DNA of 64,000 bases from Escherichia phage vB_EcoM_10C2_SA_NWU. Within the stretch, counting starts at the first letter, position 1, and each line of letters opens with the position of its first letter. Positions 11,993 to 56,877 of this stretch are shown here, piece after piece. The notes below the pieces were generated by a model. The model saw nothing but the letters and a program-made list of their open reading frames with translations, searched no databases and was not told the origin of the DNA. The stretch lies in sequence record OR062525, one strand, 5' to 3'. The translations under genes were made by a program, and so were the position numbers.

Positions 11993-12271
11993 ATGAGCTG
12001 TGAAAAATCTTTTTTCTTTATTATTTACGGTAAAGATAACTGCCCACATTGTGTAAGAGCAAAAGAATTTGCAGTCAGTAAAGGTCTGCCTTTTGTATAT
12101 AAGACACTTGGCGAGGGTTACACAAAAGAAGAGCTTATTGAGAAGTGCAGTCCAATCGTACCCAGAACGTTGCCGCAGATCTTCTTAGAAAGTAATCTTG
12201 AAAGTGCCCATATAGGCGGTGCCGATGATTTCATCTCTTTTGTTAAGAATGGTTTTGGAGAGAAAAAGTGA
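11993..12271 (+). CDS. glutaredoxin/thioredoxin-like protein (NrdC/NrdH-like)
   Basis: CPHC redox motif near N-terminus, about 90 aa, between nrdB and nrdD. Confidence 0.6.
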   Translation: MSCEKSFFFIIYGKDNCPHCVRAKEFAVSKGLPFVYKTLGEGYTKEELIEKCSPIVPRTLPQIFLESNLESAHIGGADDFISFVKNGFGEKK

Positions 12272-13128
12272 AAGTTGTAAAACGGGACGGTAGAGAAGAG
12301 GTCTATAACGGAATTAAGGTGATCAAGGCGGCAGAGTCCGCCTTACTTGAGTCTGGACATACTGAAGAAGAAGCTTACCGGATCGCCTGCGCGGTTAATG
12401 AAGTTGTTGCTAACAATCTACCAACCGACCAGTGCACGATCTCTGTAAAAAATATCCATATCCTTGTTGAAGACGCTCTTATGGATATGGGTTTAAAATG
12501 TGCAGCCAGAGAATACATCCAGTATAGGCAGACAAGAGATAATAACAGAGAGGCAGGTGGAAAACTGCTTGCAGATATTAGTGGCTTCTTGGATCGCACT
12601 TGTGATGAATTTACAAAAGAAAACGCAAATAAGCCTACCAATCATGTACACACTCATCGTGACCTGCTTGCAGGCATCCTTAGCAAACACCTTGCATCAA
12701 CACAGATCCTGCCAGACCGTGTCTCAGAAGAGCACAATAAAGGCTTCATCCATGTGCATGATCTTGACTACTTGATCAGTCCGTTAACAAACTGTTGTTT
12801 GGTAAATTATCCAGATATGTTGGAAAACGGATTCAACATTGGCAACGCCCATGTCAGTAAGCCGAAGTCAATAGGGGTTGCAACAACAATCCTTAGCCAA
12901 ATCTCTAGTGCAGTAGCTAGTGCTCAATATGGAGGTCAGACTATGAGCCATATTGATCATTATCTGGCACAGTATGCTGAGGCTACCTATGAGAAGAATC
13001 TTAAATTTTGCCAGGAGCACTGGTTGCCAGATGCTGAAGGTGTTGCAATGCAGATGACTGATAAAGACGTGTTTGACAGCATGCAGACGTTGCTTTATCA
13101 AATCAACACGTTAACTTCTGTCAACGGT
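12268..13128 (+). CDS. nrdD: anaerobic ribonucleotide reductase NrdD, exon 1
   Basis: ATP-cone-like N-terminus (VKRDGREEVYNGIKVIKAAE); frame ends GGT then TAA at a predicted group I 5' splice site. Confidence 0.7.
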
Positions 13129-13282
13129 TAACAAACTGGCCGTTGTAAAACTCTCCTAACCTCATAAGAGGGGTCGGTAAATCCGGCTAACGGGGAACGC
13201 TAAGGCGAAAGCTATGCCAATCCCGTGACTAGTTCTTACAGGAGTTGGAACGGTTGTAACGACTAACGAAAGGCAGAGATGC

Positions 13283-13311
13283 TTGACAAACATTTCTGAA
13301 CCAAGTAGTGT
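13283..13311 (+). promoter_or_regulatory. sigma70-like promoter for the intron homing endonuclease
   Basis: TTGACA-N17-TAGTGT upstream of GGAGAGG RBS and ATG 13353. Confidence 0.4.
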
Positions 13312-13352
13312 AGGGGTTAGTTGAAATACTAACTTCGAAATGGAGAGGCTCT

Positions 13353-13886
13353 ATGAAAAAGATCATTCTTAATGGTGAAGAATCAAACTATGTGATTGAT
13401 GAGGTTGGAAACGTATACGGAAAACGTGGAATGCTACACCCAATATTGTGGGGAGGTTATGGAAAAGGTAACAAGCATGTTAAACGCCGTTATATGTACT
13501 CTTTCAACCACAAAGGTAAAAAGATTCGAATCCAAACCTCAAGGATTGTTGCCTTGTATTGTTTGCCAGATGTCCCAGAAGACCCTGAAAACTGGGAAGT
13601 GAATCATAAAGATGGCAATACATTGAATGATCATCCGTCTAACCTAGAGTGGGTTTTGCCGGAAGATAATAAGAGACATGCTTTCCGAACAGGACTTTGT
13701 CCAGGCAAGTGCTATAGGAAAGTGCAGGCATACAAAGGGAAAACCTTAGTTGGTGAATATCCTTCACTCTATGCCTGTGCAAAAGCCTTAAATTTGAACG
13801 TAGGTAACGTTCATAGGGCTATCGAAGGAAATGCCGAAGGTAAGCATCTAACAATAAAGGGTTATTATCTTATTGAAGTAGAGTAA
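13353..13886 (+). CDS. HNH homing endonuclease (intron-encoded)
   Basis: EVNHKDGNTLNDHPSNLEWVLPEDNKRH HNH motif; N-terminal NUMOD4-like NYVIDEVGNVY; C-terminal HTH-like. Confidence 0.75.
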   Translation: MKKIILNGEESNYVIDEVGNVYGKRGMLHPILWGGYGKGNKHVKRRYMYSFNHKGKKIRIQTSRIVALYCLPDVPEDPENWEVNHKDGNTLNDHPSNLEWVLPEDNKRHAFRTGLCPGKCYRKVQAYKGKTLVGEYPSLYACAKALNLNVGNVHRAIEGNAEGKHLTIKGYYLIEVE

Positions 13887-13967
13887 GAGATAGTCTGGCC
13901 CTGTGGAAACACAGGGAGGAGACAGCAGACTCCATTCATCACATTAAGTTTAGGACTGGATACCTCG

Positions 13968-15188
13968 GTCTTTGGTAGAATGATTACCAAAAATTACTTG
14001 AAAGTCCACAAAATGGGTCTTGGTGAAGAACGGATCACACCTGTGTTCCCTAAAGTACTGTTCTTCCTAGAAGAGGGTGTCAACATGAACCCCGAGGATC
14101 CTAACTATGATTTGAAACGATTAGCTCTGGAATGCTCTGCAGAGCGGATTTATCCTGACTTTGTTTCTGTTCCACTAAATCGTAAAGTGACAGGCTCGAC
14201 AGATGGTAAAGTAACGAGCATGGGTTGCCGGAGTTTTCTTAGCAAATACAATGACTTGGAAACAGGCGAGGAGAAATACCTTGGCAGATTTAACTTAGGC
14301 GTTGTTAGCCTTAACCTACCAATGATTGCGGCAAAAGCTAAAACGGAAGGTGTTGATTTCTTTGCAGTTCTTGACGAGTACTTGGATCTGGCATACGAGG
14401 CTCACCTTGTAAGGGTTAACCGTCTAAAAGGAACAAAGGCAGGGCAGAACCCCATCATGTGGTGTGAAGGAGCCCTTGCTCGCCTGGATCCTGAAGAGAG
14501 TATTGATAAACTCTTCTATGACGGGTATGCTTCCATAAGTATTGGGTATATTGGTGTGTATGAAACCTGCCAGATTTTAGGCAGAGAGGGAGACAAGTCC
14601 TTAGCTCTTGGGATCCTTCAGCACATGAAAGACGCTTGTGATCGGTACAAAAAAGAAAGTGGTCTGGCATTCAGCTTGTACGGCACTCCTTCAGAGAGCT
14701 TGTGCTATAAGGCTGCAACATGTCTAGATCGTGAATATCCTGAAGTGTTGAAGCACGAGCACGAATACCTTACCAACAGTTTCCACCAGCCCGTGTGGAT
14801 CAATAGCTCACCTTTTGACAAGTGGAAGTATGAGGAAGGTTTTGCTATGATCTCTTCTGGCGGTAACATTGGATACATAGAAACACCTAACCTGAAAAAC
14901 AACCTGGATGCTTTGGAATCCCTTGTCGATTTCGGGTATAAACACATTATGTATTTTGGTATTAACCAACCTGTGGATAAATGTCTTAAGTGCGGATTCT
15001 CTGGTGAGTTCAGTGCAAAAGCTAAAGGCTTTGTATGCCCAGAGTGCGGAAACCATGAAGAGGGAACGATCAGTGTGATTAGACGTGTATCTGGGTATCT
15101 GTCCAGTCCAAACTCCCGACCTTACAACAAAGGTAAGCAAGCGGAAGTTATAGAACGGGTTAAGCACTACGGAAGCTGTGGTTGCTGA
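13968..15188 (+). CDS. nrdD: anaerobic ribonucleotide reductase NrdD, exon 2
   Basis: C-terminal glycyl-radical motif RRVSGYLSS and Cys cluster CLKCG...CPECG; in frame with exon 1 if spliced at 13128/13968. Confidence 0.7.
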   Translation, partial: VFGRMITKNYLKVHKMGLGEERITPVFPKVLFFLEEGVNMNPEDPNYDLKRLALECSAERIYPDFVSVPLNRKVTGSTDGKVTSMGCRSFLSKYNDLETGEEKYLGRFNLGVVSLNLPMIAAKAKTEGVDFFAVLDEYLDLAYEAHLVRVNRLKGTKAGQNPIMWCEGALARLDPEESIDKLFYDGYASISIGYIGVYETCQILGREGDKSLALGILQHMKDACDRYKKESGLAFSLYGTPSESLCYKAATCLDREYPEVLKHEHEYLTNSFHQPVWINSSPFDKWKYEEGFAMISSGGNIGYIETPNLKNNLDALESLVDFGYKHIMYFGINQPVDKCLKCGFSGEFSAKAKGFVCPECGNHEEGTISVIRRVSGYLSSPNSRPYNKGKQAEVIERVKHYGSCGC

Positions 15189-15251
15189 TACTTGACAAAA
15201 GCCACAAGGATGTGGCATATTGTTGTTACACAGTAAACTAGGAGGTGCAGT

Positions 15252-15365
15252 ATGTCGTCAGGTATTTATAAAATTTGCAAGTGTGGTTGTCATTGCAATC
15301 TTCGTTGGTGCAAGGCACTGGATGATTTTATTTGGCATTGTCCTAAATGTGATGCGGAGTACTTA
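15252..15365 (+). CDS. small Cys-rich protein (37 aa)
   Basis: ATG after TAGGAGGTG RBS; MSSGIYKICKCGCHCNLRWCKALDDFIWHCPKCDAEYL; stop overlaps nrdG start; absent from ORF track (too short). Confidence 0.4.
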
Positions 15366-15838
15366 TGAATATTGTCGGATACACAGAAATATCCTACACC
15401 GAAGGGCCAGGTCTCAGGACGGCCTTGTGGGTATCTGGGTGCCCACACGCTTGTCCTGGTTGCTTTAATCAAGCATTTTGGTCCAAAGATAGGGGAAGAG
15501 AATTCACTGAAGAAGATTTGCAGAGAATTTTGTCAGATTTGGACAATGAATCTATATGCGGTATTTCTTTGCTTGGTGGAGAGCCTTTGGCTACGTATAA
15601 TGAGCCCGGTATTATTAAACTTATGAGGAGAATTAAGGAAAAGTTTGGTGACAAGAAAACTATTCTTGTGTATACTGGGTTCACATTTGAGCATATCTCT
15701 AGTGATGTTCTTGAGCTGGCTGATATCATCATTGATGGCAAGTATGTAAAAGATTTACCAACAAAGAAACCATTCCGAGGCAGCGATAACCAAAGAATGT
15801 TTAAAAAGGTAGCAGGCGGTTGGGTTCAGGTTGACTAA
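15365..15838 (+). CDS. nrdG: anaerobic RNR activating enzyme NrdG (radical SAM)
   Basis: CPHACPGCFN cysteine cluster, about 157 aa, directly after nrdD. Confidence 0.8.
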   Translation: MNIVGYTEISYTEGPGLRTALWVSGCPHACPGCFNQAFWSKDRGREFTEEDLQRILSDLDNESICGISLLGGEPLATYNEPGIIKLMRRIKEKFGDKKTILVYTGFTFEHISSDVLELADIIIDGKYVKDLPTKKPFRGSDNQRMFKKVAGGWVQVD

Positions 15839-53864: not shown

Positions 53865-54180
53865 CTGTGATCTGGAACGGGACGCCCATCATTTTAGAAG
53901 CTTGCCAGAAGCAATGCACCACCATTTCACCCACAGGGCTCCAGATAAGTTCAAGCTTTCCGTCATCGTTCAGGATAGGATCGTACACCGTGTTTCCGTC
54001 TCTGTCAACCACTTCGTTTCCGTCCTCATCCTTGCGTGCCTTTTTGTACTTATGACCGTCGAACACATGAAGTTTGGCCTCCTGCTCTGCCTTAAATGCT
54101 TCCAGTTCTTCGATTGTGTCGAAGGTGTACACAGTCTTATACTTCGGTGTGTCAGGGACTTGAAGTTGGTACTCATCCAA
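53824..54180 (-). CDS. hypothetical protein
   Basis: co-directional ORF. Confidence 0.4.
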   Translation of the reverse strand: MDEYQLQVPDTPKYKTVYTFDTIEELEAFKAEQEAKLHVFDGHKYKKARKDEDGNEVVDRDGNTVYDPILNDDGKLELIWSPVGEMVVHCFWQASKMMGVPFQITGEYLCGRNWGDCH

Positions 54181-54447
54181 TAGTTCAGGTAGGTCGTTAA
54201 GCTACCCCGCACCATTACGTGCATAGCCATACGTTTTCACGTAGGATCGGACCATCTCATATTCCTATGATAAGCAACCACAGGAATCCTCCCATTTAGA
54301 CCGCACTTGCTGGTCTACTTCCTTTCGGAATGGCCTCTGAGCGTTCGCTCTTTTGAGCGCTTCGTTGCGGATTACCTTGCCATAAGGTTTAGGCTTCCCG
54401 CAGTTAAAGAGGTTATTCGACATAGATTACTCTATGAAGCCACAATG

Positions 54448-56877
54448 TTATTTATGGTAATAAATAATACGACGAACACCTTCATCGTACCACCCACGCT
54501 TCACCATCTGGTGGTGCATGAGTATTCCAACTAAGTCACACAACGATGCACCGCCATTTTGTTGGTATGCATTAAGTAAAGAGTGTTTAGATCGGGTCCA
54601 GATAGCATGACCATCAAAAGAGTAGATAAACTTCTTACCTGTTGCTTCCCAGAATTTCTCCAGATCCTCTTTGCGCCCCTTAAGACCTGGGTTGGCATCC
54701 CAGAGTGCATCGATTACCCTTTGTCCCAACTCTGGGGAGATGTCCAGCATATCTGCAACTTTATCTTTTTGTGCCCCGTACATAACCCCATACGTGATAG
54801 GTTTACCGTCGTTACGGGACACCTCTCTGCCTGCCACTTTTGTATATGCCTCAGCATTGTTTTGGTGTGCGTCTCCGTTACTTACAACATCATAATACAA
54901 GCCGTTGTCGAACTCAAAGGCACCCCAAGCCCCGATAAGCTGCTCTAAGTTGGACCCGTCAATACCGATCTCAAAGTATCCCGGAGGAACACCCCACAGA
55001 CTACGCATCTCTTTACCCATAACCACTTTAGGAGATGGTTTAGGCATGTTTGCACAAATACTGTGTTTCTGTCTGGAAGTGTTTGTTAATCCAGAGCTTT
55101 TAGCAGGAAGCTTATGGTCAATCTTCAAACGTGGGTGATTAAGAAGACCAGTATCAACCTTATCCTCCTTGATTGGATCAAGGACCGATCTGCGGTTTCG
55201 CAATGATAACCACAAGACGATATCTTTAGCCATCTCTCCGTTCAATTTTTCAAGATTTGGGCATAGGTGTCCAAACGTATCTTTCAGTTGCGGAGAAGTA
55301 ATAAGTGCCCTGGCTTTTCTACGTATTTTCCCGAATACTTCCTTTTTAATCCTTTCGGAGTTAGGAAAGCTTCGGAACTTGTGCACGGTTGTCTGGAACT
55401 TAGCATCAGTTTTGTTCCAGAAGTTGATAATTAGGTCACAATACTCTGACTCCAAAAGCTCGTCCATATATGCATATACTCGTGCATCAACATCTGCATC
55501 AGGTAAAGCTTTCTTCTTGCTGTCTTTAGTTACATCTTTAGTTCTCCACATTGTTGGTAACCATCCGGCCCCGATAAGGTATCTTTTGATATCATCCTGA
55601 TTACTTATCTTCATAGGAACACGGCAGTCTGGCATTCTCTTCTGCCGCAAATCCTGCATTGCTTGCCGCATCAGGTTTTCTGGAAGAGGTTGTGGTTTAG
55701 CAGACCCTTGCAAGTAGCCACGTAAAAACTCAGGCATCATTTCTGGGTCACTGCACCCCATTTCAATACACCACTTAGCGCCAATTTTGCTAACATCCCC
55801 AGATGTTGTAAATGCCCGTTTTGGAGGCTCTTTGAACTCAAGGGCTTCCATATCAACAGGGTAACCAAGCTTATCTTTTAACCACTTCCAGCCGTTGTTT
55901 GAAATCGTACCATCCTGGTTAAAAGGTTTCTCTGGGAATTTCGGTCTTTGTGATTGAGACAGCTCTTTTAGCGGCAACTGAGGCTCCACACGATCCGCGA
56001 TCTCTTTCATCCAAGCATCACAACGATCTCTGAGCGCCAACGCACCATCTATGTCGAAATATACCCCTTGTCGGGCCTGCAATTCCATTAAAAAATGTTG
56101 CAGCATCCCTCTACGTAGTGCATTTTTCCAGTTAATCTTTTTAAAGCCGTGTGGTTTCTCTTTCTCTGGATCATACATAAAGTTCTGCATGTCAGATTTA
56201 CCATAAAACACACCTTTAGCCTCTGCTGTCAGTTCCTTCCATAGAAGTTCTTGAATGATAACGTCTTCAAATACACGATCAACATACTTCCACAGAGGTA
56301 AATTTCTCCAGTCATCAATTTTAACCTTCTGGTTTCCTAAAGCGTACCCCCACGCCATTAGGCCATGAGGACCTACCTGCTGCATACGTTTTGTAACAGG
56401 ATTGTATACAGAATCAGGGCATCCTTTAGGTAACGGTCTGTCGGGCCATAGTATACGACTCATTGGCAGAGTGTCGAACAGGTTCACCTGATGATTATTG
56501 ATTGTCCCCATACACTTGGGATCACGGAACATATCAAAATGAATACCAGACAGCTTCTCCATCAAGATAAAGTCATAACTAAAACAGTTGTGACAACTTA
56601 ATGATGTGGGTGACCAATCGGAGTTCCCGGTTAACCACCATTCAAGCTGGCTGAAATCCGCAATACGGACAGAGCAGCTAGGATAGATATCTTGCTTTGC
56701 CAGCATAAATTGTTTTGCTTTTTCAACCTCCTCTTCACTGTAATGAGATCTATCATTGATAGGCAAAAACAACATAAAATTATTTTTATTCAACTCTTTA
56801 AACAGGCCACAATGGTAGTAAAGATCTTCCTCGTCCAGAAGACCTGAGGCCTCAAAGTCAAAATTCCACATACTCAT
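54448..56877 (-). CDS. family A DNA polymerase with N-terminal 3'-5' exonuclease domain
   Basis: Exo I FDFEASG, Exo II HNCFSYDF; motif A-like GIDGSNLEQL, motif B-like RNDGKPITYGVMYG, motif C variant WYDEG; AAGGAGAA RBS. Confidence 0.6.
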   Translation of the reverse strand: MSMWNFDFEASGLLDEEDLYYHCGLFKELNKNNFMLFLPINDRSHYSEEEVEKAKQFMLAKQDIYPSCSVRIADFSQLEWWLTGNSDWSPTSLSCHNCFSYDFILMEKLSGIHFDMFRDPKCMGTINNHQVNLFDTLPMSRILWPDRPLPKGCPDSVYNPVTKRMQQVGPHGLMAWGYALGNQKVKIDDWRNLPLWKYVDRVFEDVIIQELLWKELTAEAKGVFYGKSDMQNFMYDPEKEKPHGFKKINWKNALRRGMLQHFLMELQARQGVYFDIDGALALRDRCDAWMKEIADRVEPQLPLKELSQSQRPKFPEKPFNQDGTISNNGWKWLKDKLGYPVDMEALEFKEPPKRAFTTSGDVSKIGAKWCIEMGCSDPEMMPEFLRGYLQGSAKPQPLPENLMRQAMQDLRQKRMPDCRVPMKISNQDDIKRYLIGAGWLPTMWRTKDVTKDSKKKALPDADVDARVYAYMDELLESEYCDLIINFWNKTDAKFQTTVHKFRSFPNSERIKKEVFGKIRRKARALITSPQLKDTFGHLCPNLEKLNGEMAKDIVLWLSLRNRRSVLDPIKEDKVDTGLLNHPRLKIDHKLPAKSSGLTNTSRQKHSICANMPKPSPKVVMGKEMRSLWGVPPGYFEIGIDGSNLEQLIGAWGAFEFDNGLYYDVVSNGDAHQNNAEAYTKVAGREVSRNDGKPITYGVMYGAQKDKVADMLDISPELGQRVIDALWDANPGLKGRKEDLEKFWEATGKKFIYSFDGHAIWTRSKHSLLNAYQQNGGASLCDLVGILMHHQMVKRGWYDEGVRRIIYYHK

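What the first reader, a model, noticed from the sequence alone, without database searches (positions are those of the whole stretch)
12268..15188. nrdD split by a group I intron carrying an HNH homing endonuclease
The anaerobic RNR gene is in two pieces: the N-terminal ORF ends at 13128-13131 (GGT then TAA) and the glycyl-radical/zinc-ribbon part resumes about 840 nt later in a frame that stays open from 13887. In between lie a P1-like pairing (exon CAACGGU with downstream GCCGUUG, U.G at the splice site), core-like segments (CUAACGGGGAACG, AAUCCCGUG) resembling what I recall of the T4 sunY/td introns, and a freestanding HNH endonuclease ORF with its own promoter and RBS. Self-splicing introns in nrdD are known from T4-like phages; the exact 3' splice site (13967 vs 13958) is not resolved here.
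Basis: partly seen in the sequence, partly recalled or inferred. Interest (0 to 1): 0.55.

Follow-up and report, generated by a model that had tools for sequence, protein, structure and literature searches.

The report
Self-splicing intron with endonuclease in phage nrdD
The anaerobic ribonucleotide reductase gene of this rV5-like E. coli phage is interrupted by a 797-base mobile group I intron that carries its own DNA-cutting enzyme; this is an ordinary kind of phage element, and the same splice junction is already annotated in sister phages.

Summary
The finding is real and its main interpretation is right. The window is an rV5-like Vequintavirus, 100% identical to phage vB_EcoM_12A_SA_NWU.

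- **Boundaries:** nrdD exon 1 is 12268-13128, the intron is 13129-13925 (797 nt), and exon 2 is 13926-15188.
- **Junction:** it is fixed by intronless relatives (rV5 and others) and by Pfam NRDD colinearity (profile positions 1-154, then 155-562). The same junction reproduces the RefSeq protein of the BASEL phage WalterGehring exactly.
- **RNA fold:** it is a group I, IA2-like fold. It has P1 with U13128·G13139, P3-P9, P7.1/P7.2 and ωG13925. The fold is supported by compensatory changes across six variants, four of them from diverged phages.
- **Rfam:** RF00028 gives only 31 bits against a gathering score of 50.
- **Endonuclease:** the 177-aa I-HmuI-like HNH gene fills the P8 loop. Its ribosome-binding site is the P3 3' strand and its AUG lies in P8.
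- **Mobility:** about 27 of 120 relatives carry this form, 14 carry an ORF-less form and the rest are intronless. The intron's non-coding parts are nearly identical in phages whose distal exon 2 differs by 7-10%, which points to recent homing.
- **Relation to T4:** it is not the T4 nrdD intron. The site is 32 nt away and the endonuclease family differs.

Splicing and cleavage are inferred, not shown. Ordinary; low interest.

The parts
12268..13128 (+). nrdD exon 1 (GTG start; ATP-cone plus the N-terminal part of NrdD; ends ...SVNG, codon GGU)
   Evidence: Pfam ATP-cone E 1.8e-14; NRDD profile 1-154 ends at residue 287. Colinear with rV5 gp108.
13129..13925 (+). Group I intron, 797 nt, IA2-like
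   Evidence: Exactly the stretch missing from intronless rV5, typing phage 14, naam and MiataMamis. Rfam RF00028 31.4 bits. Structure covariation.
13926..15188 (+). nrdD exon 2 (starts CAG ACU = QTPF...; glycyl-radical domain and Zn ribbon; stop at 15186-15188)
   Evidence: Pfam NRDD 155-562 and Gly_radical. The spliced product is 707 aa with a single terminal stop.
13122..13145 (+). P1: exon CAACGGU (13122-13128) pairs with the internal guide GCCGUUG (13139-13145); U13128·G13139 at the 5' splice site
   Evidence: Sequence. The outermost pair is C-G, U·G, U-A or A-U in different variants; the U·G is kept in 6 of 6.
13129..13131 (+). UAA in the exon-1 frame, formed by the first three intron bases; it stops ribosomes at the splice site
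   Evidence: Conserved in all variants.
13151..13156 (+). P3 5' strand, CUCUCC
   Evidence: Pairs with 13342-13347. The ORF-less variant has CUCUGC/GCAGGG. Other family members have different complementary pairs after GAAA.
13160..13188 (+). Two extra hairpins between the P3 5' strand and J3/4: CCUC-AUAA-GAGG (13160-13171) and GGUCGG-UAAAU-CCGGCU (13172-13188)
   Evidence: Covariation in 42 distinct related phage introns. All 5 and all 7 pairs of the two helices show changes on both sides.
13190..13251 (+). P4-P5-P6 domain: P4 ACGGGG/UCCCGU (13190-13195 / 13221-13226), P5 and P5a with a GAAA loop, P6 13232-13239 / 13244-13251
   Evidence: Rfam partial hit 13190-13266. Covariation.
13261..13265 (+). 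P7 5' strand, GACUA (guanosine-binding helix)
   Evidence: Pairs with UAGUC 13891-13895. Invariant in 6 of 6 variants. Aligned to the Rfam consensus ...GACUA / ...AUAGUC.
13272..13302 (+). P7.1 hairpin. Its loop holds TTGACA (13283-13288). A TAGTGT hexamer follows 17 nt later at 13306-13311, a possible internal promoter for the endonuclease.
   Evidence: 7 of 10 pairs change on both sides while the loop TTGACA is kept in four diverged ORF-containing variants and is absent from the ORF-less variant. Not called by the promoter scan.
13313..13336 (+). P7.2 hairpin, GGGGUUAGU-UGAAAU-ACUAACUUC
   Evidence: 6 of 9 pairs change on both sides.
13342..13347 (+). P3 3' strand, GGAGAG, which is also the Shine-Dalgarno sequence of the HNH gene
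13348..13353 (+). P8 5' strand, GCUCUA; its last base is the A of the HNH start codon
   Evidence: Pairs with UAGAGU 13879-13884. The variants read ACUCUA/UAGAGU, AACUUA/UAAGUU, AAUCUA/UAGAUU, AAUUUA/UAAAUU and AACAAU/GUUGUU.
13353..13886 (+). HNH homing endonuclease gene (177 aa), I-HmuI-like, occupying the P8 loop
   Evidence: Pfam HNH_3. PHROG 59 E 1.5e-26. PDB 1U3E (I-HmuI) E 2.7e-4 for the single sequence and 5e-11 for the profile, colinear over residues 8-160. N84, H85, N97, N106 and H109 are invariant.
13879..13884 (+). P8 3' strand, UAGAGU; it overlaps the last codon and the first base of the HNH stop codon (13884-13886)
13891..13895 (+). P7 3' strand, UAGUC, preceded by J8/7 AAGAGA
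13899..13916 (+). P9 hairpin, CCCUGUG-GAAA-CACAGGG
   Evidence: Rfam alignment. 4 of 7 pairs change on both sides.
13925..13925 (+). Terminal intron guanosine (ωG) at the 3' splice site
   Evidence: G precedes the junction in all six variants.

Best explanation
A mobile group I (IA2-like) intron of 797 nt interrupts nrdD between Gly287 (GGU) and Gln288 (CAG), inside the conserved NGQTPF motif.

Inferred splicing mechanism:
1. On the pre-mRNA, ribosomes stop at the UAA formed by the first three intron bases.
2. The intron folds: P1 with U13128·G13139, then P3-P9 with P7.1 and P7.2.
3. A free guanosine bound in P7 attacks the 5' splice site.
4. The freed U13128 3'-OH attacks after ωG13925. The joined exons encode a 707-aa NrdD.

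Endonuclease. The P8 loop holds a 177-aa I-HmuI-like HNH endonuclease. By analogy with I-HmuI, it probably nicks intronless nrdD alleles of co-infecting phages. Recombinational repair would then copy the intron in (homing).

Coupling of expression to folding. The ribosome-binding site of the endonuclease is the 3' strand of P3, and its AUG lies in P8. In a folded ribozyme both are sequestered. A conserved TTGACA-N17-TAnnnT in and just after the P7.1 loop may start a shorter transcript that lacks the P3 5' strand and so frees the ribosome-binding site. This resembles the control described for T4 I-TevI.

What is shown and what is inferred:
- Shown here: the boundaries, the fold with covariation, the endonuclease family and the patchy distribution.
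- Inferred: catalysis, nicking, promoter use and the translational coupling.
For: **Junction**
- A 163-nt exon1+exon2 query matches more than 200 phage records in one piece at >=80% coverage.
- MAFFT against rV5 gives a single 797-nt gap.
- Pfam NRDD is contiguous across the junction.
- Splicing phage WalterGehring at the same junction gives exactly QXV85697.1 / YP_011997805.1.

**The gene is functional**
- Window against rV5: 110 nucleotide differences, 91 of them at third codon positions, and 14 of 707 residues changed.

**Fold**
- Rfam RF00028 gives 31.4 bits in the window (E 6e-6 locally, 3.8e-4 window-wide).
- The 257-nt ORF-less variant gives 29.8 bits over the full model.
- On six variants, 92.6% of cells pair against 35-49% when partners are slid. 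25 of 79 pairs change on both sides, and 0 of 500 shuffles reach the observed score.
- The 5'-half model finds 54 related introns: 93.5% paired and 26 of 30 pairs covarying.

**Endonuclease**
-.

**Mobility**
- 27 ORF-containing, 14 ORF-less and roughly 79 intronless alleles among 120 relatives.
- Among ORF-containing Vequintaviruses the intron's non-coding parts show 0-4 differences in 263 nt, while distal exon 2 differs by 7-10%.
- The same intron plus a homologous HNH (52-65% identity) sits at the same site in diverged phages.
Against: - Rfam's group I model does not reach its gathering score here (31.4 against 50), whereas the T4 nrdD intron scores 105.
- No RNA or biochemical data exist for this intron: splicing, cleavage and promoter use are all inferred.
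- The fold departs from the canonical IA2 layout by two hairpins between P3 and J3/4.
- The promoter scan did not call the internal promoter, because its -10 matches only 3 of 6 positions.
- No clear co-conversion tract is visible beyond the bases next to the junction.
- The covariation structure was derived from one of the aligned sequences, and the set is small (6 rows).
Confidence: 0.9

Rival explanations
1. The insertion does not splice. nrdD is expressed as two polypeptides that assemble after translation, as described for Aeromonas phage Aeh1 nrdA split by mobE.
For: GenBank records of the identical phage and several relatives annotate two separate NrdD CDSs. The Aeh1 precedent is cited in PMC7344957 and PMC3653736.
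Against: The insert has a complete group I fold with covariation, U·G at the 5' site and ωG at the 3' site. Without splicing, exon 2 has no in-frame start before 13980, so residues 288-305, including QTPF, would be lost. The excision is exact to the base relative to intronless alleles.
Confidence: 0.03
2. nrdD is a decaying pseudogene disrupted by an inactive intron remnant.
For: The Rfam score is below threshold.
Against: Both exons are under strong purifying selection: 91 of 110 differences from rV5 are at third codon positions. The intron core is nearly invariant in about 27 phages, and its helices are kept by compensatory changes in diverged phages. The HNH ORF is intact in all of them.
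Confidence: 0.03
3. The intron splices, but the HNH protein is no longer, or never was, the agent that moves it into this site. It may be inactive, cut elsewhere, or serve another role. The patchy distribution would then come from ordinary recombination.
For: No cleavage data exist. An ORF-less intron persists at the same site in 14 phages. No extended co-conversion tract is seen.
Against: The catalytic His and Asn residues are invariant across homologues of 32-87% identity, and the ORFs are full length. Four of the five more distant homologues whose contigs were read (P0031, P0032, P0036, P0037) sit within nrdD. For three of them (P0031, P0032, P0037) the flanks show the same NG|Q site. The intron is far less diverged than its exons.
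Confidence: 0.15

Closest known systems
Phage T4 nrdD (sunY) group I intron with I-TevII
   Same: A self-splicing group IA intron with a homing endonuclease, in the same gene and the same conserved stretch (…NTL..S.NGQTPF…). An in-frame stop lies close to the 5' splice site (PMC2988022).
   Different: - The T4 site is 32 nt upstream, after the first base of the Tyr codon aligned to window Tyr277, at 13096|13097 in window coordinates.
- I-TevII is GIY-YIG, not HNH.
- The T4 ORF follows the catalytic core instead of sitting in P8.
- T4 lacks the two extra hairpins and does not match the 5'-half model R1.
- T4 scores 105 bits in Rfam against 31 here.
Bacillus phage SPO1 DNA polymerase intron with I-HmuI (and I-HmuII, I-BasI)
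   Same: A phage group I intron that encodes an I-HmuI-type HNH enzyme. The window protein aligns colinearly with I-HmuI (PDB 1U3E) over its whole length, profile E 5e-11. This family consists of nicking endonucleases (PMC3428280).
   Different: The host gene is DNA polymerase, not nrdD, and the host phage is different. About 25% identity by eye in the 1U3E alignment. Nicking is not shown for the window protein.
Phage T4 td intron with I-TevI
   Same: The P4 strands and junctions (ACGGGGAAC … CAAUCCCGUG) occur in loci whose sequence matches the td intron as I recall it (not checked against the T4 record). P7.1 and P7.2 are joined by a GUA-containing linker. Endonuclease translation is controlled by RNA structure plus an internal promoter (PMC2988022).
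   Different: - In td, as I recall it, P2 precedes P3 and nothing lies between P3 and J3/4.
- In td, as I recall it, the ORF is in the P6 region, not in P8.
- The enzyme is GIY-YIG.
- The host gene differs.
The same intron as annotated in BASEL Vequintaviruses (WalterGehring, MaxBurger, EmilHeitz)
   Same: Same site, 99% identical intron and the same spliced protein junction. The authors state that intron boundaries were set by comparative genomics (PMC8594841).
   Different: This is annotation only. The searched library holds no structure, splicing or endonuclease data for it. The record identical to the window (OR062528) annotates two NrdD fragments and hypothetical proteins.

Membership tests
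Group I intron | P1 helix between the end of the 5' exon and an internal guide sequence, with a U·G pair at the splice site | tested here: met
   CAACGGU/GCCGUUG with U13128·G13139. The U·G is kept in 6 of 6 variants, and the outermost pair covaries.
Group I intron | Terminal guanosine (ωG) immediately before the 3' splice site | tested here: met
   G13925. G is present in all six variants.
Group I intron | Conserved core helices P3-P9 in the canonical order, supported by covariation | tested here: met
   92.6% of cells paired against 35-49% when slid. 25 of 79 pairs change on both sides. The 5' half was tested on 42 distinct relatives. Caveat: the structure was derived from the window sequence.
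Group I intron | Rfam RF00028 score at or above the gathering threshold (50 bits) | tested here: not met
   31.4 bits in the window and 29.8 bits for the ORF-less variant. Only 1 of 13 related 'two-hairpin' intron loci passes, so the model is insensitive to this architecture.
Group I intron | Removal restores an uninterrupted host gene, colinear with intronless alleles | tested here: met
Group I intron | Guanosine-dependent self-splicing | not testable with these tools
   Needs in-vitro transcription with GTP, or RT-PCR from infected cells.
Subgroup IA2 | P7.1 and P7.2 between P7 and the P3 3' strand, joined by a GUA-containing linker (criterion as stated in PMC3428280) | tested here: met
   P7.1 is 13272-13302, the linker is AAGUAGUGUA and P7.2 is 13313-13336. 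Both helices covary.
Subgroup IA2 | P3 5' strand directly followed by J3/4 and P4, as I recall for td, Twort and T4 nrdD | tested here: not met
   Two hairpins (13160-13188) lie between them. T4 introns do not match this model.
HNH homing endonuclease, I-HmuI type | HNH (ββα-Me) motif with the catalytic His and the Asn residues | tested here: met
   Pfam HNH_3, 29.3 bits against a 24.8 cut-off. N84, H85, N97, N106 and H109 are invariant in 8 homologues.
HNH homing endonuclease, I-HmuI type | Full-length colinear similarity to I-HmuI, including the C-terminal DNA-binding modules | tested here: met
   PDB 1U3E: E 2.7e-4 for the single sequence and 5e-11 for the profile, residues 8-160 against 8-159. 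The Pfam I-HmuI_NUMOD-like hit is below its cut-off (18.4 against 27).
HNH homing endonuclease, I-HmuI type | Site-specific nicking or cutting of the intronless allele | not testable with these tools
   Needs purified protein and intronless rV5 nrdD DNA.
HNH homing endonuclease, I-HmuI type | Patchy presence among close relatives, with the element less diverged than its flanks | tested here: met
Orthologue of the T4 nrdD (sunY) intron | Same insertion site, same endonuclease and the same core layout | tested here: not met
   The site is 32 nt away. I-TevII is GIY-YIG. There is no R1 match in T4.
Class III ribonucleotide reductase NrdD (host gene) | ATP-cone, NRDD core, glycyl-radical domain and C-terminal Zn ribbon, with the NrdG activase next to it | tested here: met
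   Pfam hits on both exons, and NrdG (Fer4_12 / Radical_SAM) at 15365-15838.

The most novel reading that the evidence does not exclude
The intron may represent a widespread but poorly catalogued architectural class of IA2-like phage introns. In this class two covarying hairpins are inserted between the P3 5' strand and J3/4. About half of 60 distinct IMG/VR introns that share this P4 have the layout, and Rfam's gathering threshold misses 12 of 13 such loci.

The class would couple endonuclease expression to ribozyme folding. The Shine-Dalgarno sequence is the P3 3' strand, the AUG lies in P8 and the stop codon lies at the end of P8. A conserved σ70-like promoter in the P7.1 loop would make a transcript that cannot form P3.

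I could not establish whether this layout has already been described.
Probability: 0.25. Interest if true: 0.4.

Novelty: already known. Interest (0 to 1): 0.2.

Why it matters
- **Annotation.** The record identical to this window, and many relatives, list nrdD as two fragments plus a hypothetical protein. The correct product is one 707-aa enzyme, made by joining 12268..13128 to 13926..15188.
- **Method.** A gathering-threshold Rfam scan misses this intron and most of its structural relatives. Counts of phage introns made that way are therefore underestimates.
- **Biology.** This is one more case of homing elements crowding into conserved motifs of ribonucleotide reductase genes. At least four distinct sites are now seen in phage nrdD.
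- **A usable natural series.** Intronless, ORF-less and ORF-containing alleles all exist in cultivable E. coli phages, including the BASEL collection, and could be used to study homing.

None of this changes what is known about how such elements work.

Tried and rejected
1. **First P3 assignment, rejected.** I first paired the 3' strand of the second hairpin (AUCCGGC) with GCCGAAGGU at about 13834 inside the ORF, which placed the ORF between P7.2 and P3'. The hairpin halves covary with each other. CUCUCC/GGAGAG has compensatory support in the ORF-less variant and in other family members.
2. **Off-by-three error.** I first took the ORF-less intron as L002 2365-2621. The correct range is 2362-2618, because the annotated CDS includes the TAA.
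3. **Wrong gene for the second intron.** I assumed from the rV5 paper that the Rfam-positive intron at 54228-54463 was the terminase intron. Pfam shows it lies in the DNA polymerase gene.
4. **MAFFT of four diverged introns (A1).** It misaligned the 3' half, so I did not use it for a model.
5. **Unanchored search for P3 partners with G·U allowed.** It did not beat shuffled controls (6.2 against 5.9 bp). Anchoring on the GAAA motif helped but is not a rigorous statistic.
6. **Full-length covariance model.** I did not attempt it because of the calibration time limit and the P3/P7 pseudoknot. Only the 5' half was modelled.
7. **Literature.** I found no paper in the library that describes this intron, or a hairpin insertion between P3 and P4. 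PMC421625 (I-HmuI homing) is not held.
8. **Co-conversion.** No clear gradient appears beyond position -1 (T against G) and position +3 (G against A).
9. **Structure prediction of the HNH protein.** I skipped it because the profile match to I-HmuI was already clear.


Full report
**What the window is.** Region 12268-15188 is 100% identical to Escherichia phage vB_EcoM_12A_SA_NWU and 94-97% identical to FFH2, FV3, slur16 and several BASEL phages. All of these are rV5-like Vequintaviruses. The local gene order is nrdA, nrdB, glutaredoxin, nrdD, a 38-aa Cys-rich ORF, nrdG and phoH.

**Checking the observation.**
- The first ORF (12268-13131) ends GGT then TAA.
- It carries an ATP-cone and positions 1-154 of the Pfam NRDD profile. 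The match ends at its last residue.
- The frame that is open from 13887 carries NRDD positions 155-562 starting at its residue 13, plus the glycyl-radical domain.
- Between them lies a 177-aa ORF (13353-13886) with an HNH_3 domain.
- The P1-like pairing and the two 'core-like' strings are present at the stated places.

**Fixing the junction.**
- I joined the last 79 nt before 13129 to the first 84 nt from 13926. This 163-nt query matches rV5 and many other phages in one piece (204 records at >=80% coverage).
- MAFFT against rV5 nrdD gives a single 797-nt gap.
- Group I rules (U before the 5' site, G before the 3' site) place the intron at 13129-13925. Exon 1 ends GGU (Gly287) and exon 2 starts CAG (Gln288), which restores NGQTPF.
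- The spliced product is 707 aa with one terminal stop.
- The same junction applied to phage WalterGehring reproduces its deposited protein QXV85697.1 / YP_011997805.1 exactly.
- The BASEL paper states that intron boundaries were set by comparative genomics (PMC8594841).

**Is it a group I intron?**
- *Rfam at gathering threshold.* It reports only a different intron, at 54228-54463 on the minus strand.
- *Rfam in E-value mode.* The nrdD region gives 31.4 bits. The alignment is a hybrid: its 3' part (J8/7, P7, P9) is real and its 5' part falls inside the ORF. A second hit of 11.3 bits covers P4-P6. Window-wide, E is 3.8e-4, and this is the only sub-threshold hit in the window.
- *ORF-less variant.* Fourteen relatives, for example bov10K2, carry a 257-nt ORF-less intron at the same site. 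It aligns to the whole Rfam model, from P1 at the splice site to P9, at 29.8 bits.
- *Calibration.* The proven T4 nrdD intron scores 105 bits.

**The fold, built by hand.** The elements are:
- P1: 13122-13128 with 13139-13145.
- P3: CUCUCC 13151-13156 with GGAGAG 13342-13347.
- Two extra hairpins: 13160-13188.
- P4-P6: 13190-13251.
- P7: GACUA 13261-13265 with UAGUC 13891-13895.
- P7.1: 13272-13302.
- P7.2: 13313-13336.
- P8: GCUCUA 13348-13353 with UAGAGU 13879-13884.
- P9: 13899-13916.
- ωG: 13925.

**Independent support from diverged phages.** Homologues of the HNH protein (52-65% identity) led to more diverged phages (NrdD 54-85% identical). They carry the same intron at the same NG|Q site. 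On six variants:
- 92.6% of cells form standard pairs, against 35-49% when the partners are slid.
- 25 of 79 pairs change on both sides.
- No shuffle out of 500 reaches the observed covariation score.
- P8 reads GCUCUA/UAGAGU, ACUCUA/UAGAGU, AACUUA/UAAGUU, AAUCUA/UAGAUU and AAUUUA/UAAAUU. A sixth contig has AACAAU/GUUGUU.
- Caveats: the set is small, and the structure was derived from the window sequence.

**An architectural peculiarity.**
- Two hairpins lie between the P3 5' strand and the J3/4-P4 segment.
- A pattern search for this P4 in IMG/VR found 82 loci. About half of the 60 distinct sequences have this layout. The rest have P3 directly upstream of J3/4, as I recall for td.
- A covariance model of the 5' half found 54 matches. 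In 42 distinct sequences, every pair of both hairpins changes on both sides. That alignment was fitted to the model, and P4 was fixed by the search pattern.
- The T4 td, nrdB and nrdD introns do not match this model.
- Rfam's gathering threshold detects only 1 of 13 such loci.
- Together with the ORF in P8, this explains the low Rfam score. I could not find out whether the layout has been described before.

**The endonuclease.**
- The ORF matches PHROG 59, HNH endonuclease.
- It aligns colinearly with I-HmuI, the nicking enzyme of the SPO1 DNA polymerase intron (PDB 1U3E). E is 2.7e-4 for the single sequence and 5e-11 for a profile of eight homologues.
- N84, H85, N97, N106 and H109 are invariant.
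- The ORF exactly fills the P8 loop. The Shine-Dalgarno sequence GGAGAG is the P3 3' strand, the A of the AUG is the last base of the P8 5' strand, and the U of the stop codon is the last base of the P8 3' strand.
- A folded ribozyme would therefore hide the translation start. This is an inference.
- The P7.1 loop holds TTGACA, followed after 17 nt by TAGTGT. The promoter scan did not call it.
- However, TTGACA with 17-18 nt spacing to TAnnnT is kept in four diverged ORF-containing variants whose P7.1 stems covary. The ORF-less variant has a minimal P7.1 without it.
- A transcript that starts there would lack the P3 5' strand and leave the ribosome-binding site free. This parallels the control described for T4 I-TevI (PMC2988022).

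**Mobility.**
- Of 120 related records, 27 carry the ORF-containing intron, 14 carry the ORF-less one and the rest lack an intron at this site.
- Among ORF-containing Vequintaviruses, the intron's non-coding parts differ at 0-4 of 263 positions and the HNH gene is 96.6-99.1% identical. Distal exon 2 is only 90-93% identical.
- Intronless alleles read GGG|CAA, ORF-containing ones read GGT|CAG and ORF-less ones read GGT|CAA.
- This pattern fits recent lateral spread by homing. Cleavage itself is untested.

**The host gene is functional.** Against rV5 there are 110 nucleotide differences. 91 are at third codon positions, and only 14 amino acids change.

**Comparison with what is known.**
- T4 nrdD also has a group IA intron, with I-TevII (PMC2988022). 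Its splice site aligns to 13096|13097 in window coordinates, 32 nt upstream and in codon phase 1.
- Its enzyme is GIY-YIG and its core lacks the two hairpins. The two introns are analogous occupants of one conserved stretch, not orthologues.
- The enzyme's closest characterised relative is I-HmuI.
- Relatives show further nrdD sites. One follows the window-equivalent of 14225 (SMG|CRSF) in phita32, JEP1, C2 and L018. Another lies near residue 165 in L095 and L096.

**Verdict.** This is a bona fide but ordinary phage group I intron with an HNH homing endonuclease. Its junction is already annotated in sister genomes.

Noticed in passing
window 54178-54453, minus strand: A second, ORF-less group I intron (276 nt; Rfam RF00028 64.7 bits) lies in the family A DNA polymerase gene. 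Exon 1 ends ...YYH (CAT at 54454) and exon 2 starts DE (GAT GAG at 54177), which restores a YYH|DEY sequence that I recognise from memory as the polymerase HDE motif. An in-frame TAA follows two codons into the intron. The joined exons match phage JeffSchatz in one piece, so that phage is intronless here, while rV5 itself carries the intron.
   Followed up: partly
L003 3459-4220 (phage phita32); window-equivalent position 14225|14226: Some relatives (phita32, JEP1, 'Campylobacter phage C2') carry a second nrdD intron of 762 nt, with a td-like 5' layout and a 169-aa ORF. It is inserted at SMG|CRSF. IMG/VR contig L018 has ORF-less versions of both nrdD introns. L020, L066 and L081 carry an intron from the same P4-pattern search; in L066 and L081 the NrdD match is interrupted near that position in much more distant nrdD genes.
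   Followed up: partly
L095 2074-2392 and L096 1454-2406: Diverged relatives have yet another interruption of nrdD near residue 165 (HVHD|LDY). In L096 it holds a 206-aa HNH ORF. Counting the T4 site, phage nrdD genes therefore show at least four distinct insertion sites.
   Followed up: no
window 13160-13188; loci L007-L088: About half of 60 distinct IMG/VR phage introns that share this P4 have two covarying hairpins between the P3 5' strand and J3/4. Rfam's gathering threshold detects only 1 of 13 such loci, and the T4 introns lack the feature.
   Followed up: partly
window 13029-13128 compared with 12268-12828: Identity is mosaic around the intron. The first 560 nt of exon 1 are 96.6-99.8% identical to relatives (>=97.9% in all but FV3). 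The last 100 nt differ by about 6-12% from almost all of them, whether or not they carry the intron, and share some bases with bov10K2 and MiataMamis. Distal exon 2 is about 7-13% diverged. This suggests recombination patches next to the intron.
   Followed up: no
window 15192-15369: Between nrdD and nrdG lie a promoter-like TTGACA-N18-CATATT overlapping a GC-rich hairpin (15201-15216) and a 38-aa ORF (15253-15369) with CxC and CxxC motifs that is annotated as hypothetical in relatives. It has no Pfam hit.
   Followed up: no
GenBank records MG0656xx: About 20 records named 'Campylobacter phage' are 94-99% identical to these E. coli rV5-like phages across nrdD. The host labels look doubtful.
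   Followed up: no
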